In this document: piece by piece, positions 7,516 to 62,175 of the stretch
How the letters are laid out: the number at the start of each line of letters is the position of its first letter
Numbering within the stretch: position 1 is the first letter of the stretch
Source of the DNA: Glaucostegus cemiculus
Taxonomy: Eukaryota
NCBI GenBank assembly: GCA_976551045.1
Contig: CDPCPM010000103.1
Span: forward strand, 4,588,001 to 4,652,000
Length of the DNA: 64,000 nt
Reading direction: 5' to 3'
The notes under the pieces: model-generated
The model's input: only the letters and a program-made list of their open reading frames with translations
Database searches by the model: none
Told to the model about the DNA's origin: nothing
Translations under genes and position numbers: made by a program

Positions 7516-8152
7516 GTGAGCATCAAGCGACAAATGCACTGCTTCCACCCCCAGAAACACGTCCAGTGCTCCTGTATCGACGTGAATCGGTTTCACTGGG
7601 GAGGCAATTCCAAACGGGATCAGATTGAAGCAGGGTCAGCGGCTGTGCCGGGGACTGGCCGCAGCTCACCGCGAACCGCCTGCTGGCACCTCGCACTGTT
7701 CTTTTCTGAAAGGGATTGATGATGAACGGCCGTAAACTCGGCCAGATAATTTTAAAAGACGAATGTTGTGTTGCGAGATTTCAACCTGTAAATTTAATCA
7801 TTCAGGGTAAAGTTATACAGGAACATTTCCCCCTTTACGTAAGAAAAGGGAATCTGACTAAGAGTTCCAGGGGGAAAAAAAGTGATGTAAGAGATCCAAG
7901 GAAAAAAAAGCCTCATTATAGATTTTCGTTCTGAGGACTATGGTCAACAATATTGACAAGAAATATTGTTTATCGGGAGAACTGGTTCCCGATCCTCAGT
8001 GCAGACACAATCATGGGTATTTTTAATAGAATGTATGTAAAATACTGCAGTCATTTGAAATCTCGTTTATCCTACGTTACTCCATTAACTTTACGTTTGT
8101 TTCAGTAAATAGTTTTTTTTGTTACGGTTGAACATATTTTCTTGTTTTTAAG

Positions 8153-8776
8153 GTGTGGTTCAAAAACCGTCGAGCGAAGTGCCGCCAACAACAGCAACAG
8201 CAGCAGAATGGAGGGCAGCATAAAGTTAGGCCAACGAAGAAGAAGAGCTCTCCTGCCCGGGAGCTGGGCTCGGAGAGCGTGGCCGGCGGCCAATTCACGC
8301 CGCCCTCCAGCACCTCGGTGACGGCCATATCGAGCAGCACCGCCCCAGTGTCAATTTGGAGCCCCGCGTCCATATCTCCGATCGCCCCCGATTGCCTCTC
8401 CACGTCCTCGTCCTGCATGCAGCGTTCCTATCCCATGACCTACACCCAGGCCTCGGGTTACACGCAGGGATATGCCGGATCCACGTCCTACTTTGGGGGA
8501 ATGGACTGCGGCTCGTACCTGTCCCCGATGCACCACCAGCTCCCCGCCCCAGGTACGGCGCTCAGTCCCATGGGCACAAACGCAGTCACTGCAGGCCATC
8601 TCAACCAGTCTCCGGCCTCCCTCTCTGCCCAAGGCTACCCAGCCGGCGGATTAGGTTTTAATTCCACCGATTGCTTGGATTATAAAGACCAGACAGCATC
8701 ATGGAAACTCAACTTCAACGCTGACTGCTTGGATTACAAAGATCAAACGTCCTCGTGGAAGTTCCAAGTTTTGTGA
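8153..8776 (+). CDS. otx2: Otx2 coding exon 3 (K50 recognition helix, polyQ, SIWSPA motif, duplicated OTX tail)
   Basis: Acceptor ...gtttttaag|[21 protein letters not shown]...SIWSPAS...[35 protein letters not shown]. Spliced CDS is 873 nt = 290 aa. Lacks the His-rich insertions of Otx1. Confidence 0.98.
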
Positions 8777-20269: not shown

Positions 20270-21490
20270 CCTTTAGCCAGGCTGATCTGGAACACCAATG
20301 CAATGGGAAGTGCTGTCATCAATAAGGTTATCAAATGCCAATTCCTCACCAATAACCTGCCAGCTAACGATTGATTAAGGTCTTGGCAACACTAATCAGG
20401 ACTATCAGAGCTGTGCTCCTAATGCAAACAAAAGAGCTGAATTCCACAGATGAAGTGAGAACGACTGGCCTTGACATCAAGGCAATACTTGACCAACTGT
20501 GGTACCAAGAAGCCCTGGTAATGGGAATCAAGGGGATAATTCTCCATTGGATGGAGTTATACATCACATGTAGGAAGATGTCTATGGTTATTAAAGTCAA
20601 TCACGTTGGCTTTTGAACATCACTAAAGGTATTCCTCTGGGCAGTGTCTTGGGCCCAATTTCTTCATCGGTGACCTGACCTCCTCTATCCAAAGTGGGCT
20701 TGTTCATTGATGATTGTGCAATGCTCAGGTCCATTTGCAGCTCCTCAGATGGTAAAGCAGTTTGTTCCCGCATATAGCAAGACCAGGATATCATTCAGGG
20801 ACAGGCTGAATAGTAGTAAGCAAGCTATGCCGCACAAACAAACTCTACCGTTAAAATCTGATCACTTTCACTTGAACTTCATCAGCATCATTATTGCTGA
20901 ATTCTTCAATAGCAGTATATTGAATGGAATTTAACTGGACCAGCCTTAAAATTAGAAGCAAGGTTTTCTGTAGTGAGTGATTCACTCTCTGACACCTTAA
21001 ACACCGCCATCTACAAGGCATAAATCTGTTGCATAATAAATATTCTTCATTTTCCTGGGTGAGAAAAGATCCGAGAAGACTAAAGAAGGTCAACAGGATT
21101 CAGGGTAAAGTAGCCTGCTTAATTGGAATCCAACATTGTGCCTTAAATAAACACAGAAATGCTGGAAGAACTCAGCCAGTCAATCAGCATCTATGGAAAG
21201 ATCAACCAGTTAAAGTTCCAAGTCAATAACTCTTTCTCGGAACTGTGTTTCTGTTTTGTTTTGTTTTGATGTTCTTCAAAAACCATTCCTGATTCAAATT
21301 CCAGCATCTGCAGTTTTACTTGTTTCTACTCATCTCTTAAATGACCACCACAATGCACCGCAGATTCATGTGTGCCACCTACAGGATGAACTGAAGCATC
21401 TTGCCAGTGTTTCATTGACTGATCACTACTGTTTGGAAGAAGGGGAGTGGATACATGGGAACACCACCACCTACAATTTTCCTCCACTTC
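20270..21490 (+). mobile_element. Decayed non-LTR retrotransposon (CR1/L2-group RT), interrupted by a Penelope-derived insert
   Basis: ORF 20371 TKELNSTDEVRTTGLDIKAILDQLW matches the RT motif ALDIKAAFDRVW. GIPLGSVLGP-like and FIDD-like motifs at 20628-20715. Confidence 0.75.
21148..21325. mobile_element. Penelope-derived short element nested in a LINE
   Basis: aaatgctggaagaactcagc...cagcatctatgg arm and ttccagcatctgcag tail, shared with the copies at 29600 and 43479. Confidence 0.7.
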
Positions 21491-24809: not shown

Positions 24810-24965
24810 AGTTAAAGAAGTTGAATCTGTCTTCTTTGGAGCTTAGAAGAACGAGTGGTGATTTTACTGCAACATATAAGATCCTAAGAGAGCATGACAG
24901 GATAAATGTTGAATTATTTCCACAAGTGCCAAAGTCTCAAACAAAGGCACATGGTTTCAAAATAA
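24810..24965 (+). mobile_element. CR1 ORF2 C-terminal fragment
   Basis: Translates as LNLSSLELRRTSGDFTATYKILR, matching the CR1 motif LFSLERRRLRGDLIETYKI. Confidence 0.75.
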
Positions 24966-25040
24966 CATTAACTGTTTCTCTTTCTGCAGATGCTGCCTGA
25001 CCTGCTGAGTGTTTCCAGCATTTTTTTGTTTTTATTTCAG
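24966..25040 (+). mobile_element. Penelope-derived terminal fragment
   Basis: cagatgctgcctgacctgctgagtgtttccagcatt, shared with 43625, 59945 and 62093. Confidence 0.75.
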
Positions 25041-28745: not shown

Positions 28746-29599
28746 CAGGCAATACAATGAGAATATATGATTAATCCAAATCAAGAAATTCCCATTCAAA
28801 AATTCTGCTGCCTGCTCATTACAATTTCAACATGCAGCCATTGCAAACAATGACATTCATTGGCAAGAAGTGTCAGGGTGGTGGGGAGGATACTGGTGGT
28901 AAGAGCGGTGGTTCTGTGCCATCTACAATATAGTGAGTGGAAAGCACCAATTAAAGCTGACCTGCACCTCCTAAAGGAATGCTGCACTTGTGCTGAAGTG
29001 CAGTGTGGCAGATATTCTGGAATCAAAGCTAGCCAGGGGGATGTTCCTACATGGGCTCCATGGCTTCCTTGCGCTGCACTGGCGGTCTTGGTTCAGGAGA
29101 TGTAAAGAACTCTCTTTTTGCAGAGATCTTAGACCCTCCTGCAGAGTTATACTCAAAAGCTGTGGATAGTTGTGGTACTGAGGGCCAGGAAGCAATACTG
29201 CAAGAATTTCAATGACCTCACATGTATGGTCAAGGTCTGTCAATGAATGCATCTTCAAATGCCACACCGACTAACTGTCTTAAACCCTGTTCAAAGTGTA
29301 TTGGTAGAATTGGCCATGAGTTCCATGCTGAAAAGGATTGGCTTCATGATATTAGGCAATGCAGGAACATATATCCATTCTTCATATATTCATTCTGCCT
29401 GGCTGTTGCTGCCTCCAGCTGTCCACCATCAATTTGGTTCACTACTGCCCTTCGAGGAAGGAAATCTATTGACCTTATTTGGTCTGGTCTGTTTGTGTCT
29501 CCAGAGCTACCAATGTGTGTACTCTTTAGCATCCCTTAAATAGCCTAGTAAATTACTCAGTTCAGGAGAAAATAAGTATGGGCAGTAAATAAAAAAAAG

Positions 29600-29826
29600 G
29601 CTGGAGGAACTTAGTGCATCAGGCAGCATCTGTGAAGTGGAATGGACAGTTGACACTTCAGGTCAAGATCCTTCATCCAGACTGATGAAGGTGAAGTCCA
29701 GATGAAGGGTCTTGACCTGAAATGTCGACTGTCTGTTTCCTCCACAGATGCTGCCTAACCTTCTGAGTCCCTCCAGCATTTTGCTTTTTGCTCCAAAATC
29801 TAGCATCTGCAGTCTCCTGTGTCTCC
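29600..29826. mobile_element. Penelope-derived fold-back element with hammerhead-like motifs
   Basis: Inverted arms ~29600-29683 and 29695-29777 plus a ~50-bp tail. Right arm reads AGTC-CAGATGA-AGGGTCTTGACCT-GAAATGTC-GACT. Confidence 0.8.
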
Positions 29827-39116: not shown

Positions 39117-40466
39117 AACTTGGAATTGGAACTGGAACTGGAATTGGTTTATTATTGTCAATTGTACCGAGGTACAGTGAAAAACTTGTCTTGCATATCA
39201 TTCATACAGATCAATTCATTACACAGTGCATTGATGTAGTAAAAGGTAAAGCAATAACAGAATGCAGAATGGAGTGTTACAGTTACAGAGAAGGTATAGT
39301 GCAGGTAGGTAATAAGGTGCAAGGTCATAAGAACGTAGATTGTGAGGGCAAGAGTCCATCTTATCGCACTCAGGAACTGTTCAATAGTCATATAACAGCA
39401 GGATAGCAGCAGTCTTTTCCCTGTGGTTCATGCTTTCAGGCTTTTGTATCTTCTGCCTGATGGGAGGGGGAGAAGAGAGAATGTCCAGGGTGGGTGGGGT
39501 CTTTGATTATGCTGGCTGCCTTACCAAGGCAGTGAGAAGCATAGACAGAGTCCATGGAGGGGAAGCTGGTTTCTGTGATGTGCTGGGCTGTGTCCACTAC
39601 TCTCTGCAATTTCTCGTGGTCCCAGGCAGAGCAGTTGCCATACCGAGCTGTAATGCATCCAGATAGAATGCTTTCTGTGGTGCATTGATAAAAGTTGGTG
39701 AGTGTCAAAGGAGACATGTCAAATTTCTTCAGCCTCCTGAGGAAGCAGAGGCACTGGTGAGCTTTCTTGGCCTTAATGTCTATGTAGCTGGACCACTACA
39801 GGCTATTGGTGATGTTCACTCCTAGGGACTCGGAGCTCTCAACCCTCTCGATCTCAGTACCATTGGTGTAGACAGGTGCATGTCACCAGCCCTTTTGTTT
39901 TGCTGACATTGAAGGAAAGATTGTTGTCATGACACCATGTCACTAAGCTCTCTGTTTCCTTCCTGTACTCTGACTCATTGTTATTTGATATTTGGCCCAC
40001 TATGATGGTATCATCTGCAAACTTATAGGTGGCGTTAGAGCAGAATCTGGCAACACAGTCATGAGTATATAGAGAGTAAAGTAGGGGACTGAGAATAAAG
40101 CCTTGTGGGGCACCAATATTGAGAATAATTATGCTGAAGGTGTTATTGCCTATCCTTACTGATTGCAGTCTGCTGGTCAGGAAGTCAAGGATCCAGTTGC
40201 AAAGGGAGGTGTTGAGTCCCAGGTCTTGGAGTTTGGTGATGAGTTTGCTTGGAATTATAGTATTGAAGTGGAGCTGCAGTCAAGAAACAATCGTCTAAAG
40301 TAGGTGTCTTTACTGTCCAGATGCTCCAGAGATGAGTGCAGGGCCAGGGAGATGGCATCCACTGTAGACCTGTTTTGGCAGTCAGCAAATTACAGTATGT
40401 CAAAGTTTTCTGGGAGGCTGGAGTTAATGTGTGCCATGACCAGCCTCTCGAAGCACCTCATGATGG
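39117..40466 (-). mobile_element. 5'-truncated Rex1/Babar-type LINE
   Basis: Minus-strand LTNFYQCTTESILSGCITARYGNCSA...KLQRVV and [19 protein letters not shown]-type RT segments. 3' end has AATAAA plus a (AATTCC/AGTTCC)n tail. Confidence 0.85.
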
Positions 40467-41530: not shown

Positions 41531-43478
41531 TCATATGTTGCTCCATATTAAATGGTAGGACTTAATCAAGGCAAGGAGCTGTGGAAAAAGGCTAAGTCTT
41601 TTCAGCACTGAACACACTGTGTTTGTACACAAGATTAAGGCTTATGAAGGCAATGCACAACAGTTTTCTCTGTTCTCTGAATTTCTCCTGCAGCTGCTTT
41701 GAGGAACAAATCAAATTGAGGTTCCATTGCTTTCGAACTGCTCCATATTAAGGCAAATGAGCAGGTTAATGAAGAAGGAGCTGCACATTGCATCTGATCC
41801 AAACAGCATTTGATCCAATGACATGAAGTTAACTGAAATAAACAATTTATTAATTCAGAAAATTGCAAAGTTGTCCCAACAGCTCCATTCGTCACCTTGT
41901 CGGGCGACATTTTTCTAACCTATGCTGGAAATAATGCTGGAAGTTCTAGCCCTAGAATCAGGTAAGCTTAGAACCAGGAATAAGAAGATACCATGTGCTA
42001 AAAGAGATGGTAAATCAGAAACCTGACACCAACTTACACTGATTCCTGCATTTTATATAATCTCCTCGAAAAATCCCATTGGGAGAACTGGGCTGGTGAT
42101 TTCAATAAGATAATCACTCATTAAGCGTGATATTAACAAAAGGTTGGGACTTTAACTGAATGTGCACAGGTTTCCCAAGCTTCTTGGGAGTTGTCAGCAA
42201 AACCAAGGCTACAGCGCCAATGATTAGGGATTAAAAGTTCAATAGGCAAATTTGTCAGAAAATTCCACAACCTCACAATTGCTTTCTTGAAAGACTATGA
42301 AAATGTATCACTGGAAGATTATTTAGCAACCTCTAAATGTTTCATTAGAACTTGCTCTAAATTTGTGTACAATTCAGCTCACTTTCCAGACTAGAAATGC
42401 CAACTTGCATTTCATGACTCTCATTCACCATATCAATCTGGGCAATGTTCATGTTGCAATCTTGTAGACTCAAAAGAAGAGAATAATAAACAAGAGCATC
42501 AGAACCAATAGAAGCTGTAGTTCACACAAACTATATGCACCACTCAGGATTTACACACAAAGAGTTTTCTATAACATGTCTAAACATTAATGTCTGAGGT
42601 GGCTCAGAGTGTTGCAGAATACTGGAGCAAAACTTGCCTGCTAGACTTAATGATCCTGCAGACAACTTCAGAATCCATAAAATTTCATGCTTGTAATAAC
42701 CCTATAAATAGAGCAGCTAAAGATAAATTAGGTGAGTCTCCATGATGCTGACTCAGTCAAATTGCTCAAAATTCCTAAAATGGTACATTAATGCCGTGAA
42801 TGTGTTGAAGTAGCCCTGACAAACATACTGTAGAAAATTCTGAATCTACTACCTTATATTGACACTCTCTCCCAAGGAATTATTTAGCAGTTGAAAAATT
42901 CAAGACCTCAAAATTATAACAAATGTGCATAAACCATTTTGTGTTTAGAAGAAAGGCGACTGGATCTAGGAACCCCATCATATATTTAATGCATAAAAGC
43001 AAAATTGCTTTTCATATGTCAAAAACAGGGTCGCTCTGTAATTACAAGAAACATGGTTTGATATCTACTTCATTTAAACAGCTTTAGCCAGACACAGCTG
43101 CATCATGTGTAACATTATAACCTGGCATCATGGTCTCACTACAAAATAGGGCATTAAAAAGTATCTTATATAGCTTCTGCAAAACATTTGCTGGTTTAGT
43201 ACATATGACCTAGTTTGGCTTGTAAATCAAAAATTGTTTGGTAAATGAAAAATTATTTTCCACATTACTTTATCCCTATTACGAGTATAAACCTACATAG
43301 GGGTTTGAACTGAATATCTCAAGAAAGCTTAACCTATATTTAGTTTTACTCTGTGCCATTCCCTATTTTGTGCAATCAATCCAGTTCTAAATCTGCCTGG
43401 TATGCAATGAAAATATGTATATAGGTCAAAATAGATTTAAACAGGGTAATTTTAAATACACATAGTTTCAAAAATAAC

Positions 43479-43709
43479 ACATACAAACTGCTAGAGGAAC
43501 TCAGCAGGTCAGGCAGCATCTACGGAGGGAAATAAACAGTTGACATTTTGGGTCAAGTCCTGATGTCCCTGATGGCCTGATGAAGGCTATCAGCCCGAAA
43601 TGTCGACTGTTTATTTCCCTCCATAGATGCTGTCTGACCTGCTGAGTTCCTCCAGCATTTCGTGTGTGTTGCTCCAGATTCCAGCATCTGTAGAATCTCT
43701 TGTGGCCCC
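43479..43709. mobile_element. Penelope-derived fold-back element with 16-bp TSD
   Basis: TAGTTTCAAAAATAAC at 43463-43478 and 43710-43725. 77-bp inverted arms 43476-43552 and 43594-43670 (8 mismatches by eye). Confidence 0.9.
43572..43609 (+). ncRNA. Minimal type I hammerhead ribozyme motif (degenerate)
   Basis: CTGATGA 43577-43583, extra A, stem II GGCT-atc-AGCC, C-GAAA 43596-43600, TGTC (cleavage triplet GUC), then GACTG. Confidence 0.6.
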
Positions 43710-44979
43710 TAGTTTCAAAAATAACCCTATTTAATCCAAAATAGTTATTTCTGTAAACCTTGCGGTAAACACAGTGAACAGGATACGTTTCAAAGATGGC
43801 GAATCAAGCACTTCTACCTGAAAATGGATATGCATTTGTAACTTGCCATATTAGGGCATCAGTAGTCCCATTACCATTCAGGAAATTGGTGCTTTGAGGC
43901 TGGATTACTGAACTACTTGTTGGTTCAAGGAGGGTAATATTGATTGGATTTGAGGTGATGCATTCAAGATCTAAAACATGTTCCCAATGTCTTAAGTGCA
44001 ATGGGTTGTCACAACTTCTTCAGCTGCTCCTGTGACATTGGATGCAATTGGAGCTTAATTTAATTGAAGCAAAACAAAATTAAATCAATGAGTGGGAACC
44101 AATTGCCATTTAACAATATTCATTATAGAGATTAATGCAATCACTACAAAACTTATTACTGAAATCTTATCTACCTGGCACATGATGTTTCAAATTTCTC
44201 AATATAAGGCTTTTCCTTAAAGATTCTATTGGTGAACAGGTGCACCATTGTAATCAACAGACAAACTCCTATCTCTAAAAGGACATTTTAACTAACCATT
44301 CCCAGCTGGAGTCTGACTATTATATTAAAATATATTAACATTTTGAAGCAATCTTCCTATTTTGTCTCTTAAATACATCCAGAGTAAGAAACAAAAGGCT
44401 ACTCAGGCCATCAAACCTATTCTTAGCAGAGACTAAGAAAGATTTTAGCCAGAAAGTATTCCAATCTCCTTTGCATCTTATATGAGCTTTCCTGTGTGGT
44501 GTGTCTAGATGGTACTGGACAAGATACCAGATTTAGGCTTTCCCTGCCCTTTGGGCCTATATATCTAAAGTTCAAGTTTGCAGATGTCTCTGATTAGGTC
44601 TTGCCTTCTATGGTTGAGTAGCAATCACAAAGCAAAATATGCTCTAATTCCTATGTGTAGGCACCCAAATTTGAAAGGATTTCATCAAATTATTACTGTT
44701 AATTTACTTCCCTGATTCTTGCCAGCTTGCATATCAGCAGAGATTGTCATATTCTTGGAGTGCTCATATAACAGTTTTTAAAGGTAGCTGCCATGATCGA
44801 CAGCCTACACATCAAGTTTGCACATAGAGAGGCTTGGGGCATTATTAGGCCTGCGTGAAATATGGGGAAGTCCAACTGTACCCTTGAAAGTGACTTTGCA
44901 TGGAGCTTAGTATCCCACCCTTTCCTGCATGGAAGTGGTAACCCAACACTTCCAGACCCAATCACGATAACTGTTTGCT

Positions 44980-45979: not shown

Positions 45980-48877
45980 GAATGTACTGTATTTCAGTGT
46001 ATGTAGCATTAGAAATAAAGTGGATGACCCAGTAGCACAGCTACAGATTAAAAAATATGACATTGTAGCAATCACTGAGTCATGACTTTAATGATGGATG
46101 TGATTGGGAGCTGAATGTCTAAGGGTACCCAGTGTATAGGAAAAATAGGTGGGTAGGCAGAAGAGGTGGTGTGGCCCTGATGGTTAGCAATGATATAAAA
46201 TCAATAGAAAGAAGGGCCATAGGGTCAGAAGGAGTAGAATCCTTATGGGTTGAGTTAAGAAATGGCAAGGGTAAAAGAACACTAATAGCAGTTATATATA
46301 GGCCCCTAACAGCAGCCGGGATGTGAACTACAGGTTACAGTTGTAAATAGAAAAAGTGTGTCAGAGAGACAATGTCAGGATAATTATGGGGGATTTCAAC
46401 ATGAAGGTGGATTGGGAAAGCCAGGAAGGTAGTGGATCTCAGGAGAGAGAGTTTGTAGAATGTCTACGGGATGGCTTTTTGGAGCAGCTTGTTGATGAGC
46501 CCACCAGGGGATCAGCTGTTTTGGATTGGGTGCTGTGTAATGAACCTGAGGTGATTAGGAAAATAAAGGTAAAAGAACCATTAGGAAGTAGTGATCATAA
46601 TATGATTGAGTTCAGTTTCAAATCTGAAAAGGAGAAGCAAAAATCAGATGTATCAATATTTCAGTGGAACAAAGGAAATTACAGTGGCATGAGAGAGGAA
46701 CTGGCCCAAAATGATTGGAAATGTAAGCTACTTGGAGGGACAGCAGAGCAGCAATGGATGAAATTTCTACAAGAAATAAGGAAAGTGCGGGACGGATATA
46801 TTTCAAGAAAAAAGGTTATGAATGGAAAAATAGCATGAATGTGGCTAACGAGAGAGGTTAAGGCTAAAATAAAAGCAAAAGGGAGGGCATCCAAGGAAGC
46901 AAAAGTTAGTGGGAAAACAGAAGACTGGGAAACTTTTAAAAACTTACAGAAAAAAACTAAGAAGGTCATTAGGAATGAAAAGATGAATTATGAAAGGAAG
47001 TTGGCAGACAATATACAAAAGGATACTAAGACTTTTTTTTATATATATATATATATATGAAGAGTAAAAGAGAGACACGGGTAGATATAGGACCAATTGA
47101 AAATGATGCGGGAGAGATTATAATGGATAACAAAGAGATGGCAGAAGAACTAAATGTGTATTTTGCATTAGTCTTCACTGTGGAAGACATCAGCAATATA
47201 CCTGATAGTCAGGGGTCTCAGGGGGTAGAACTGAGTTCAATCAAGATTACTAGAGAGAAGGTGCTCAGATAGCTAAATGGACTGAGGACAGACAAGTCTC
47301 ACAGTCCAGATGAAGTGCACCCTCAGGTTCTGAAGGAGGTGGCTTTAGGGATTGTGGAGGCATTGGTGATAATTTTCCAGGCATCAATAGACTCTGGCAT
47401 GGTTCTGGAGGAATGGAAGGTCACAAATGTATTTCCGCTGTATAAGAAAGATGGGAGGCAGCATAAGGGAAATTGCAGACCTAGTAGTCTGATATCAGTG
47501 GTTGGAAAGTTACTGGAGTCGATTCTCAAGGACGTGGTTATGGAATTTCTAGAGGTGCATACAAGATAGGTCCAAGCCAGCATGGTTTCAGGAAGGGAAG
47601 ATACTGCCTGACCAACCTATTGGAGTTTTTTGAGGAAATCTCAAATAGGATGGATAAGGGAGAGGCTATGAATGTAGTGTATTTGGATTTTCAAAAGGCC
47701 TTCGACAAGGTGCCGCACAAGAGACTGCTTAATAAGATGAGAGCCCATGGGATTACAGGAAGGATATTAGAATGGGTGAAGCATTGGCTGATAGGCAGAA
47801 AGCAAAGGGTGGGAATAAAAGGATCCTGTTCTGATTGGCTGCCGGTTGCAGTGGTGCTCCGCAAGGGTCGGTGTTGGGACTGCTTCTTTTTACACTGTAT
47901 ATCTATGATTTAGATTATGGGTAAATGGTTTTGTGGCTAAGTTTGCAGATGACACCAAGATAGGTGGAGGAGTAGGAAGTATTGAAGGAACATGAAGGTT
48001 GCAAAGAGACTTAGACAGTTTAGGAGCATGGGCAAAGAAATGGCAGATGAGATTCAATGTTGAGAAATGTGCGGTTGTACACTTTGAAAGAAGAAATAAA
48101 TGGGCAAATTATTATTTAGATGGGGAGAAAATTCAAAGTACAACAGTGCAAAGGGACTTGGGGGTCCTCGTGCAGGATACCCTCAAGGTTAACCACCAGG
48201 TTGGATCGGTGGTAAGAAAAGTGAATGCTATGTTAGCATTCATTTCAAGAGGTATAATGTATAAAAGTAAGGATGTGTTGATGAGGCTCTATGGGGCACT
48301 GGTGAGACCTAATTTGGAATACTATGTGTAGTTTTGGGCCCCTTATCTTAGGAAGGAATGTACTGATGGTGGAGTGGGTTCAGAGAAGATTTACAAGGAT
48401 GATTCCTGGAATGAAAGGGCTTACATACGATGAGTGATTGTCGGCTCTTGGACTGTGTTCATTGGAGTACAGAAGAATGAGAAGGGACCTCATAGAAACA
48501 TTTTGAATGTTGAAATGACTGAACAGAGTAGATGTGGCTAAGCTGTTTCCCTTGGTGGGTGAGTTCAGGACTAGAGGGTACAGACTTAGAATTAGAGGGT
48601 ACCCATTTAGAACAGAAAAGAGAAGAAATTTCTTTAGCCAAGAGGTCGTGGATTTATGGAATTCATTGCCCCATACAGCTGTAGAGGCCCAATCATTGGG
48701 GGTGTTTAAGGAGGAGATTGATAGGTATCTGATTAGTCAAGGTATCAAGGGATATGGGGAAAAGGCTGGAATTGGGGCTAGATGGGAATAGTTTAGCTCA
48801 TGGTGAGGTAGTGGAGTAGATTCGATGGGTCGAATGGCCTATTTCTGCTCCTTTGTCTTGTGTGATCTTGTGATCTT
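45980..48877 (+). mobile_element. CR1 LINE with near-complete but disrupted ORF2 (APE + RT) and 3' tail
   Basis: GGGVAL, MGDFN and GSSDHN endonuclease motifs; YLDFQKAFDKVPH and FADDTK (~47942). Multiple stops and frameshifts, (TA)n at 47040, (GTGATCTT)n tail. Confidence 0.95.
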
Positions 48878-59770: not shown

Positions 59771-59890
59771 ATGTCAGTAAAGGACATCCTGGATCTTGAC
59801 TAGTGATGATGCCAAACATAAATCTCAGCCAAAACTTGTATCTGCTTGGAAATTCCCCAGGGATGCTATAACAACAAACTGTCCTACAGA

Positions 59891-60022
59891 ATCCAGATGA
59901 AGGGTCTCGACCAAAAACATCAAATGTCCTTTTCCCTCCATAGCTGCTGCCTGACCTGCTGAGTTCCCCCAGCACTTTGTGCATTGCTCCAGATTCCAGC
60001 ATCTACGGTGTCTTGTGTCTCC
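59891..60022 (+). mobile_element. Single-arm Penelope-derived element with decayed hammerhead-like motif
   Basis: ccagatgaagggtctcgaccaaaaacatc...gctgcctgacctgctgagttcccccagca...ccagattccagcatct. Confidence 0.8.
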
Positions 60023-61869: not shown

Positions 61870-62175
61870 TTCTTCCACCTTTATTTTCTCAGGCTGAGCC
61901 CAGCACTGCATAGTCGTACCACTCAGCGTTGAGTTCAATGTTTCATGATATGTAAAATCAAAACCGTCTATTTCCACCCATTCAAAGCCATCTGTCCCTT
62001 CTTCCATTTCTCCCTAAAACTCTTGCCACACCCAGTTTTGGCATTTCAGCTCTATTGAAAGGTCAGAAATGTTAGCTCTGTTTCTCTCTTCACAGATGCT
62101 GCCTGACCTGCTGAGTAGTCTCAACATTTTTTGTTTTTATTTCAGATTTCCAGCAGCTGCAGTTCTTTGCTTTTC
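61870..62175 (+). mobile_element. Penelope-like element 3' remnant
   Basis: actcagcgttgagttcaatg (GLNIEF-like ORF end), followed by the shared terminal cagatgctgcctgacctgctgagt...ttcagatttccagca. Confidence 0.6.

What the first reader, a model, noticed from the sequence alone, without database searches (positions are those of the whole stretch)
43463..43725. 231-bp fold-back retroelement with a hammerhead-ribozyme core and perfect 16-bp TSD
Seen: an exact direct repeat TAGTTTCAAAAATAAC flanks the insert. The insert has 77-bp inverted arms (~90% identical), an asymmetric 39-bp tail, and CTGATGA-A-stem II-CGAAA-TGTC-GACTG on the + strand. Established: Penelope-like elements carry minimal type I hammerheads with a palindromic helix III thought to act as dimers, and can leave inverted termini. 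Inference: this is either a non-autonomous ribozyme-bearing unit mobilised whole, or the minimal product of an abortive Penelope insertion. This copy is degenerate (helix I 5' strand TGGC instead of AGTC; GAAAT instead of GAAAC).
Basis: partly seen in the sequence, partly recalled or inferred. Interest (0 to 1): 0.7.

Follow-up and report, generated by a model that had tools for sequence, protein, structure and literature searches.

The report
Twin-primed Penelope stump, dead hammerhead
This 231-base hairpin is two short end-pieces of a very common jumping gene (a Penelope-like element) joined back to back in an already described layout, with a broken ribozyme motif, and the ends of its many relatives suggest that it was likely made by copying RNA from both sides of one chromosome cut.

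Summary
Observation confirmed: 231-bp insert, perfect 16-bp TSD, 77-nt arms 90% complementary, 39-nt tail, hammerhead remnant. It is two 5'-truncated pseudo-LTR (pLTR) ends of an endonuclease-positive, Neptune-type Penelope-like element (PLE), joined head to head. The 3.3-kb parent (RT plus GIY-YIG) is in the genome, decayed. It is not a unit mobilised whole: its centre is unique in 2.85 Gb, and relatives range from 140 bp to 2.4 kb. The family consensus is a textbook minimal hammerhead; this copy's is broken and locked in the hairpin. The layout is in print. Added here, from 88 loci picked blind to architecture: 3' ends fall at two sites (about +100 and +137); 24 of 28 pairs join one of each, none joins two tails; in 9 pairs each arm holds sequence the other lacks; pairs keep TSDs more often than solos (19/28 vs 13/50); 44 of 109 arms stop at the hammerhead's 5' edge. 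Best reading: both target nicks prime reverse transcription, one at each start site (inferred, 0.62). The scan has noted this family and similar readings on other DNA (188 notes, at least 26 genomes). No empty site was found.

The parts
43463..43478 (+). Left target-site duplication, 16 bp; last 3 nt also fit the arm
43479..43557 (-). Inverted pLTR piece without tail: family positions about +17 to +96/+99 (0 = first C of the helix I strand CAGTC)
43556..43582 (+). Junction: 2-nt overlap (AG) between the arms, then three tandem copies of an 8-9-nt unit from the hammerhead's 5' edge; unique in the genome
   Evidence: sequence
43577..43609 (+). Degenerate minimal type I hammerhead: core words intact, helix I 5' strand displaced, helix II broken, position 15.2 C>T; predicted cut site after 43604
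   Evidence: layout from PMC4209133
43577..43670 (+). Direct pLTR piece, family positions +5 to +98; the ATG at 43627 is the likely start codon of the parent ORF
43671..43709 (+). 39-nt tail (family +99 to +137), the stretch between the two 3'-end sites; in tandem-junction copies it reads on into the ORF
43710..43725 (+). Right target-site duplication, 16 bp

Best explanation
The insert is two short, dead end-pieces of a Neptune-type Penelope-like retrotransposon joined head to head, likely made in one insertion event in which both cut ends of the chromosome primed reverse transcription. Shown: parentage, layout, two 3'-end sites, variable centres, a stop hotspot. Inferred steps: (1) the RT-endonuclease cuts both strands about 14 nt apart, leaving two 3' overhangs that become the TSD; (2) one overhang primes cDNA at +137 of the sense RNA (arm with tail), the other at about +100 (arm without tail), without needing homology; (3) both cDNAs run towards the hammerhead and often stop at its 5' edge, giving the common 100 + 137 nt product; (4) the two free cDNA ends are joined through 1-3 nt overlaps or short templated inserts, here a triplicated 8-9-mer. 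Why RT stops at +0 is open: RNA start at an initiator-like CCAGTCC (about 0.45), release of RT at the helix I edge next to a pyrimidine run (0.3), or the splice-acceptor-like pyrimidine tract plus CAG (0.2). The hammerhead is carried along and is predicted to be inactive in this copy.
For: Parent: the same pLTR ends long copies with a C-x4-C-x2-C linker and a GIY-YIG-like domain and near-full copies with RT motifs. Two 3'-end sites: 34 of 88 anchors end at +90..+108, 51 at +130..+138, 3 between. Pairing rule: 24 of 28 clean pairs are tail+/tail-, 2 tail-/tail-, 2 unclassed, 0 tail+/tail+; P about 3e-6 under independent choice at the solo frequency 30/52. In 21 further long or complex loci, outer ends linked by a TSD score >= 8 were tail+/tail- in 11 and tail-/tail- in 2; the 3 tail+/tail+ candidates had no TSD. 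Neither arm is a copy of the other: in 9 of 24 pairs the tail-less arm reaches 10 nt or more further upstream, in 7 the tailed arm does, 8 are within 9 nt; long pairs differ by up to 1.3 kb. TSD found in 19 of 28 pairs vs 13 of 50 solos, Fisher P = 0.0006, and in 4 of 300 shuffled flank pairs, as expected if both overhangs are kept when both prime. TSD median 14 nt in 39 of 54 pairs; overlap with element ends centres on 0. Arms of one copy share rare variants at 0.75% of sites vs 0.28% for shuffled partners, 0 of 1000 shuffles as high. 44 of 109 arms start at -3..+8, against 13 in -100..-4. In vitro, an Anolis PLE cuts and extends both strands and starts RT at two sites that bound the tail (PMC11167929).
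Against: All mechanism is read from old insertions (arms about 5.5% from consensus outside CpG sites; about 10% from each other). A symmetric snap-back palindrome trimmed later by one-sided central deletion could give unequal arms. In vitro, both strands used the same start sites (PMC11167929), so the one-of-each rule is not yet explained. Solo 5' boundaries are harder to call, which lowers their TSD rate (6 of 16 even at the hotspot), and at least one 'solo' (L132) is a pair with a 326-nt central insert. For a pure RNA-start reading: 6 tandem-junction copies run upstream past +0 while 2 stop at 0 to +2. No empty site was seen. Pfam gave no hit on three decayed protein pieces.
Confidence: 0.62

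Rival explanations
1. Snap-back: one cDNA primed at +137 folds on itself near the hammerhead, copies itself back and joins the other target end at about +100; unequal centres arise later by deletion.
For: 8 of 24 pairs are near-symmetric, several with a CAG-GA-CTG turn. Arms share rare variants. Palindrome centres are deletion-prone (recalled).
Against: 9 of 24 short pairs and 7 long pairs have a tail-less arm reaching further upstream than the tailed arm. 22 solos end at the same +100 site without any partner, so that end is a priming site and not a join point.
Confidence: 0.2
2. Self-priming on an antisense template, as proposed for Adineta Penelopes (PMC3846280).
For: It explains head-to-head orientation and palindromes at junctions in that paper. 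Both strands of the family are transcribed in a related species.
Against: It does not predict two fixed sense-RNA 3' ends, the one-of-each rule or the TSD excess in pairs. Sense RNA is the working template in vitro (PMC11167929).
Confidence: 0.08
3. A fixed 231-bp non-autonomous, ribozyme-bearing unit (SINE-, MITE- or retrozyme-like) mobilised whole.
For: The top 40 hits mostly cover the whole query with similar outer ends.
Against: That set was chosen for likeness. The centre is unique; 28 blind pairs show nearly all different junctions; sizes form a continuum to 2.4 kb; no tandem array; hammerhead helices have zero probability in the fold-back. No one-strand A-to-G scar in 58 pairs, at most 4 changes per copy.
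Confidence: 0.04
4. An exapted structured RNA (ribozyme, microRNA-like hairpin or editing substrate) at a site 35 kb downstream of an Otx gene.
For: The insertion is shared with two related organisms; fold-back junctions of the family occur in RNA reads.
Against: The arms have drifted apart like other copies; core helices are broken; Rfam hits are below threshold; family RNA depth is lower than DNA depth and lies on both strands.
Confidence: 0.03

Closest known systems
Insertion units of endonuclease-positive Penelope-like elements with inverted 5'-truncated copy, one-sided tail and TSD (PMC8557442 Fig. 2 legend; Pen2a_Av in PMC3846280)
   Same: Head-to-head pLTRs, 30-40-nt tail at one end only, TSD, pLTR holding the first codons of the ORF, partial tandems, heavy 5' truncation.
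   Different: Here the ORF-free minimal form is the commonest pair; TSDs are longer (median 14 vs 8-10 bp); 40% of arms stop at the hammerhead's 5' edge; tens of thousands of pairs.
PAc, Poseidon element of Anolis (PMC11167929)
   Same: Two RT start sites bounding the tail, early in the ORF; both strands cut and extended; priming without homology; uncleaved hammerhead is copied.
   Different: Poseidon clade, no linker zinc finger; the paper does not describe head-to-head products or a one-of-each use of start sites in the parts read.
Minimal type I hammerheads of metazoan PLE pLTRs (PMC4209133)
   Same: Consensus has both core boxes, the extra base after position 9, G10.1-C11.1, palindromic 15.2-16.2, 5-bp helix I; oppositely oriented pairs of motifs were noted there.
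   Different: This copy is broken and sequestered; 14 of 334 spanning copies pass a descriptor.
L1 twin priming (recalled, no call)
   Same: Both target nicks prime cDNA on RNA, giving an inversion bounded by a TSD.
   Different: In L1 the two segments do not overlap; here both start within 40 nt and overlap, giving an inverted repeat.
Non-LTR retrozymes (bioRxiv 10.64898/2026.07.22.740005)
   Same: Short, non-coding, hammerhead-bearing, derived from PLE pLTRs.
   Different: Retrozymes are direct tandem arrays with intact ribozymes; this is an inverted pair with a variable centre.

Membership tests
EN+ Penelope-like elements | Single ORF with RT and C-terminal GIY-YIG endonuclease in the parent | tested here: met
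   RT motifs and EN motifs in decayed 3.3-kb copies; Atlas neighbours GIY-YIG at 0.96 (55% of that cluster) and DUF8422/RVT_1. Pfam scans blank; no intact ORF found.
EN+ Penelope-like elements | pLTR that overlaps the ORF start; partial tandems | tested here: met
   The tail reads on into ORF sequence in L187, L222 and most of 30 loci.
EN+ Penelope-like elements | Inverted 5'-truncated copy and 30-40-bp tail at one end | tested here: met
   24 of 28 pairs.
Neptune/Nematis clades | CX2-5CxxC linker between RT and EN | tested here: met
   C-x4-C-x2-C upstream of the GIY-YIG motif; definition in PMC8557442.
Neptune clade | Placement in an RT phylogeny | not tested
   No reference RT set on hand.
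Minimal type I hammerhead (family consensus) | Core boxes, helices I and II, palindromic helix III | tested here: met
   Majority sequence of 221 copies.
Minimal type I hammerhead (family consensus) | Covariation in helices | tested here: inconclusive
   30 decayed copies: 78.9% of cells paired, not above shuffles (467 of 500 reach the score). One compensatory C-G to U-A change in helix I between subfamily majorities.
Minimal type I hammerhead (this copy) | Able to form helices I and II | tested here: not met
   Fails the descriptor; helix II probability 0.00; helix I 3' strand paired to the left arm at 1.0.
Minimal type I hammerhead | Self-cleavage as monomer or dimer | not testable with these tools
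   Bench assay needed.
Non-LTR retrozyme | Direct tandem repeats, each with an intact hammerhead | tested here: not met
   Inverted single unit.
Non-autonomous fixed unit (SINE/MITE-like) | Copies share one internal sequence and length | tested here: not met

The most novel reading that the evidence does not exclude
Penelope-like elements integrate by two-ended target-primed reverse transcription with a built-in asymmetry: a dimer cuts 14 nt apart, one subunit always starts at the tail end and the other 37 nt upstream, and both run to a stop at the hammerhead's 5' edge that marks the RNA start. This would explain the inverted copy, the one-sided tail and the TSD in one step, with no antisense template, and this genome holds tens of thousands of fossil records of it.
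Probability: 0.5. Interest if true: 0.6.

Novelty: new member of a known kind. Interest (0 to 1): 0.35.

Why it matters
The insert itself is debris of a known class. Its value is as a sample of a large natural data set: how PLEs make inverted copies and one-sided tails is still open in the papers read (PMC8557442, PMC3846280, PMC11167929). The end statistics give sharp predictions (one arm per start site, unequal inner ends, TSD equal to the nick stagger, a stop at +0) that the existing in vitro PLE assay can test directly. An estimated 50,000-70,000 short hairpins (7 pairs in 400 kb scattered; 16 in 664 kb) are also a large potential source of double-stranded RNA.

Tried and rejected
Rfam: no hammerhead model matched; microRNA hits are generic hairpin matches. 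Pfam on decayed parent pieces: blank; no solved-structure search was completed. Empty site: contigs of organisms A and C run from both flanks into the insert; D and F give no bridging contig. No RNA holder of the locus was listed. Family RNA reads from organism A (3 runs, 18-24% read) showed no pile of starts or ends at +0 or at the cut site and no listed GT..AG joint into the acceptor-like CAG; fragmented reads from many copies make this weak. More A>G places in RNA (44-62) than DNA (35) is uncontrolled, as the DNA run is another species. Second stop hotspot at the cut site (lead from e1-9820663): 4 of 19 ends in +9..+50 lie at +31..+37, P = 0.39; not supported here. ADAR scar (lead from e1-9141068): none in 58 pairs. 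Arm homogenisation: arms differ at 9.9% vs 11.2% for shuffled partners, so no strong conversion. Snap-back through helix I itself: no such junction among the 28 blind pairs. Rows dropped from the 90 blind loci: L114 (same locus as L113) and L159 (fetched without upstream DNA); 7 complex loci and 3 long solos were left out of TSD counts. My notebook's 33 of 78 TSDs is corrected to 32 of 78. Literature: searches listed no paper that proposes twin priming for PLE inverted pairs; the library lacks most subscription papers, and supplements (such as Figs S1-S2 of PMC11167929) were not read and may bear on this.

Full report
Observation. The fold-back is far beyond chance (z = -17). Rfam offers only sub-threshold microRNA hairpin matches. 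Family positions below count from the first C of the helix I strand CAGTC (0); the tail ends at +137.

A very common family. A genome search gave 3838 candidates, 40 scored. One exact 35-mer occurs 3068 times. A profile found 102 pieces in 664 kb, 60 of them in 400 kb of scattered stretches, which scales to roughly 400,000 pieces; 16 close pairs were all head to head. Five other loci lie in the window, one also a fold-back. The host is likely a shark or ray; that rests on recalled resemblance and earlier notes, not on a call.

The parent. Walking upstream from longer copies gave a pyrimidine-rich 3' region, a C-terminal domain with GIY-YIG-type motifs preceded by C-x4-C-x2-C, and RT motifs, about 3.3 kb in all, every copy decayed. 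The Atlas places the C-terminal piece next to a GIY-YIG cluster (0.96; 55% of members carry the family) and the RT piece next to DUF8422/RVT_1 clusters; Pfam was blank. The linker defines Neptune/Nematis in PMC8557442. In tandem-junction copies the tail reads on into the ORF's 5' part, so the pLTR is leader plus first codons, as in Adineta and Anolis elements.

Not a fixed unit. The 30 best hits share outer ends but not centres. I then took 88 loci by the exact 35-mer, blind to layout, in contig order: 53 solos, 28 clean pairs, 7 complex. Junctions of the 28 pairs are nearly all different, with short overlaps or locally templated inserts. The same layout, with TSDs, reaches 2.4 kb. This copy's centre occurs once in the genome.

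End statistics. 3' ends are bimodal: 34 at +90..+108, 51 at +130..+138, 3 between. Pairs join one of each in 24 of 28, two tail-less ends in 2, two tails in none (P about 3e-6). In 21 long or complex loci the TSD-linked ends were one of each in 11 and tail-less on both sides in 2; three two-tail candidates had no TSD. In 9 of 24 pairs the tail-less arm reaches further upstream than the tailed arm, so each arm holds sequence the other lacks. TSDs were found in 19 of 28 pairs, 13 of 50 solos and 4 of 300 shuffled controls; median 14 nt; no required homology at either end. Arms of one copy share rare variants 2.7 times as often as shuffled partners, yet differ at about 10% of sites: one source, then independent decay. 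44 of 109 arms start at -3..+8, against 13 in the 97 nt upstream. Anchors had to contain +51..+85, and pairs had two chances to be picked.

Mechanism. A TSD implies two staggered nicks with 3' overhangs. If each primes cDNA on sense RNA, the product is head to head with both RNA 3' ends outward, as seen. PMC11167929 shows in vitro that a PLE protein cuts and extends both strands, starts at two sites that bound the tail, needs no homology, and copies uncleaved hammerhead RNA. My reading joins these: one nick uses +137, the other +100, and the free cDNA ends are joined. It explains the one-of-each rule, unequal inner ends and the TSD excess in pairs. It is inference; snap-back with later one-sided deletion is not excluded, and why the two nicks differ is unexplained. 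The stop at +0 may mark the RNA start, RT release at the helix I edge, or the acceptor-like CAG (the Drosophila virilis intron ends at helix I, PMC4209133). Six tandem-junction copies pass +0 and two stop there; five internally deleted copies jump from +0 to ORF 5' sequence. RNA reads did not decide it.

The hammerhead. The majority of 221 copies has every feature of the minimal motif of PMC4209133. Covariation among decayed copies is not above shuffles; one compensatory change separates subfamilies. 14 of 334 spanning copies pass a descriptor, none in the 664-kb sample. This copy fails, and in the fold-back its helices have zero probability, as in the one intact paired copy tested.

Age and context. 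Contigs of two related organisms enter the insert from both flanks, so it predates their split; no empty site was seen. It lies 35 kb downstream of an Otx last exon, with no sign of function.

Comparison and novelty. The layout (inverted truncated copy, one-sided tail, TSD) is described in PMC8557442 and PMC3846280, the latter proposing self-priming on an antisense template. Four searches listed no paper proposing twin priming for it. I stated this reading before opening the scan's notes; those notes hold the same reading on other DNA and are not independent support. Two leads from them failed here. Papers seen: PMC11167929 and PMC4209133, parts 1-2 of 4 (main text into Methods); PMC8557442, PMC3846280, PMC6155905, passages; bioRxiv 10.64898/2026.07.22.740005, part 1 of 5 and passages; L1 twin priming recalled. 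No supplements were read.

Verdict. Real, a new member of a known kind, inert as a ribozyme; moderately useful as a record that makes the PLE integration question testable. Interest 0.35.

Noticed in passing
window 8132-8776 (+): Last coding exon of an Otx-family homeobox gene (Pfam TF_Otx, E 2.8e-29); the insert lies about 35 kb downstream.
   Followed up: partly
window 29592-29824: Second fold-back of a sister subfamily whose core reads CAGATGA instead of CTGATGA; another subfamily has CTGATGC. Shared core changes at subfamily level.
   Followed up: partly
window 59889-60020, 62048-62162, 24964-25026 (+); 21151-21245 (-): Further solo pieces of the family; the one at 59889 starts at the hammerhead's 5' edge.
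   Followed up: partly
L230, L233, L243, L246, L255 (around 1370-1800 in the orientation): Internally deleted minis: pLTR end plus 130-170 nt of ORF 5' sequence joined to a second pLTR at +0..+2, likely template jumps; many such joins leave the ORF 5' part at about +260..+340.
   Followed up: partly
L132:1487-2042: Two arms starting at +2 and +5, separated by 326 nt of unrelated sequence, the whole bounded by a 16-nt TSD.
   Followed up: no
L091, L092, L101, L102, L103, L106, L204, L220: In 7 of these 8 long pairs the longer arm is the tail-less one; small, selected sample.
   Followed up: no
L094:2254 (run X20): 3313 RNA reads share one unrelated upstream sequence joined at the hammerhead's 5' edge: one highly expressed transcript in a relative carries such a copy, or splices into it.
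   Followed up: no
L242 and L252: Two CpG-rich, closely similar tandem-junction copies with the same upstream start (-642); possibly a duplication or a younger source.
   Followed up: no
window 39854-40279 (-), 46347-47913 (+): Decayed LINE fragments with RT and endonuclease matches.
   Followed up: no
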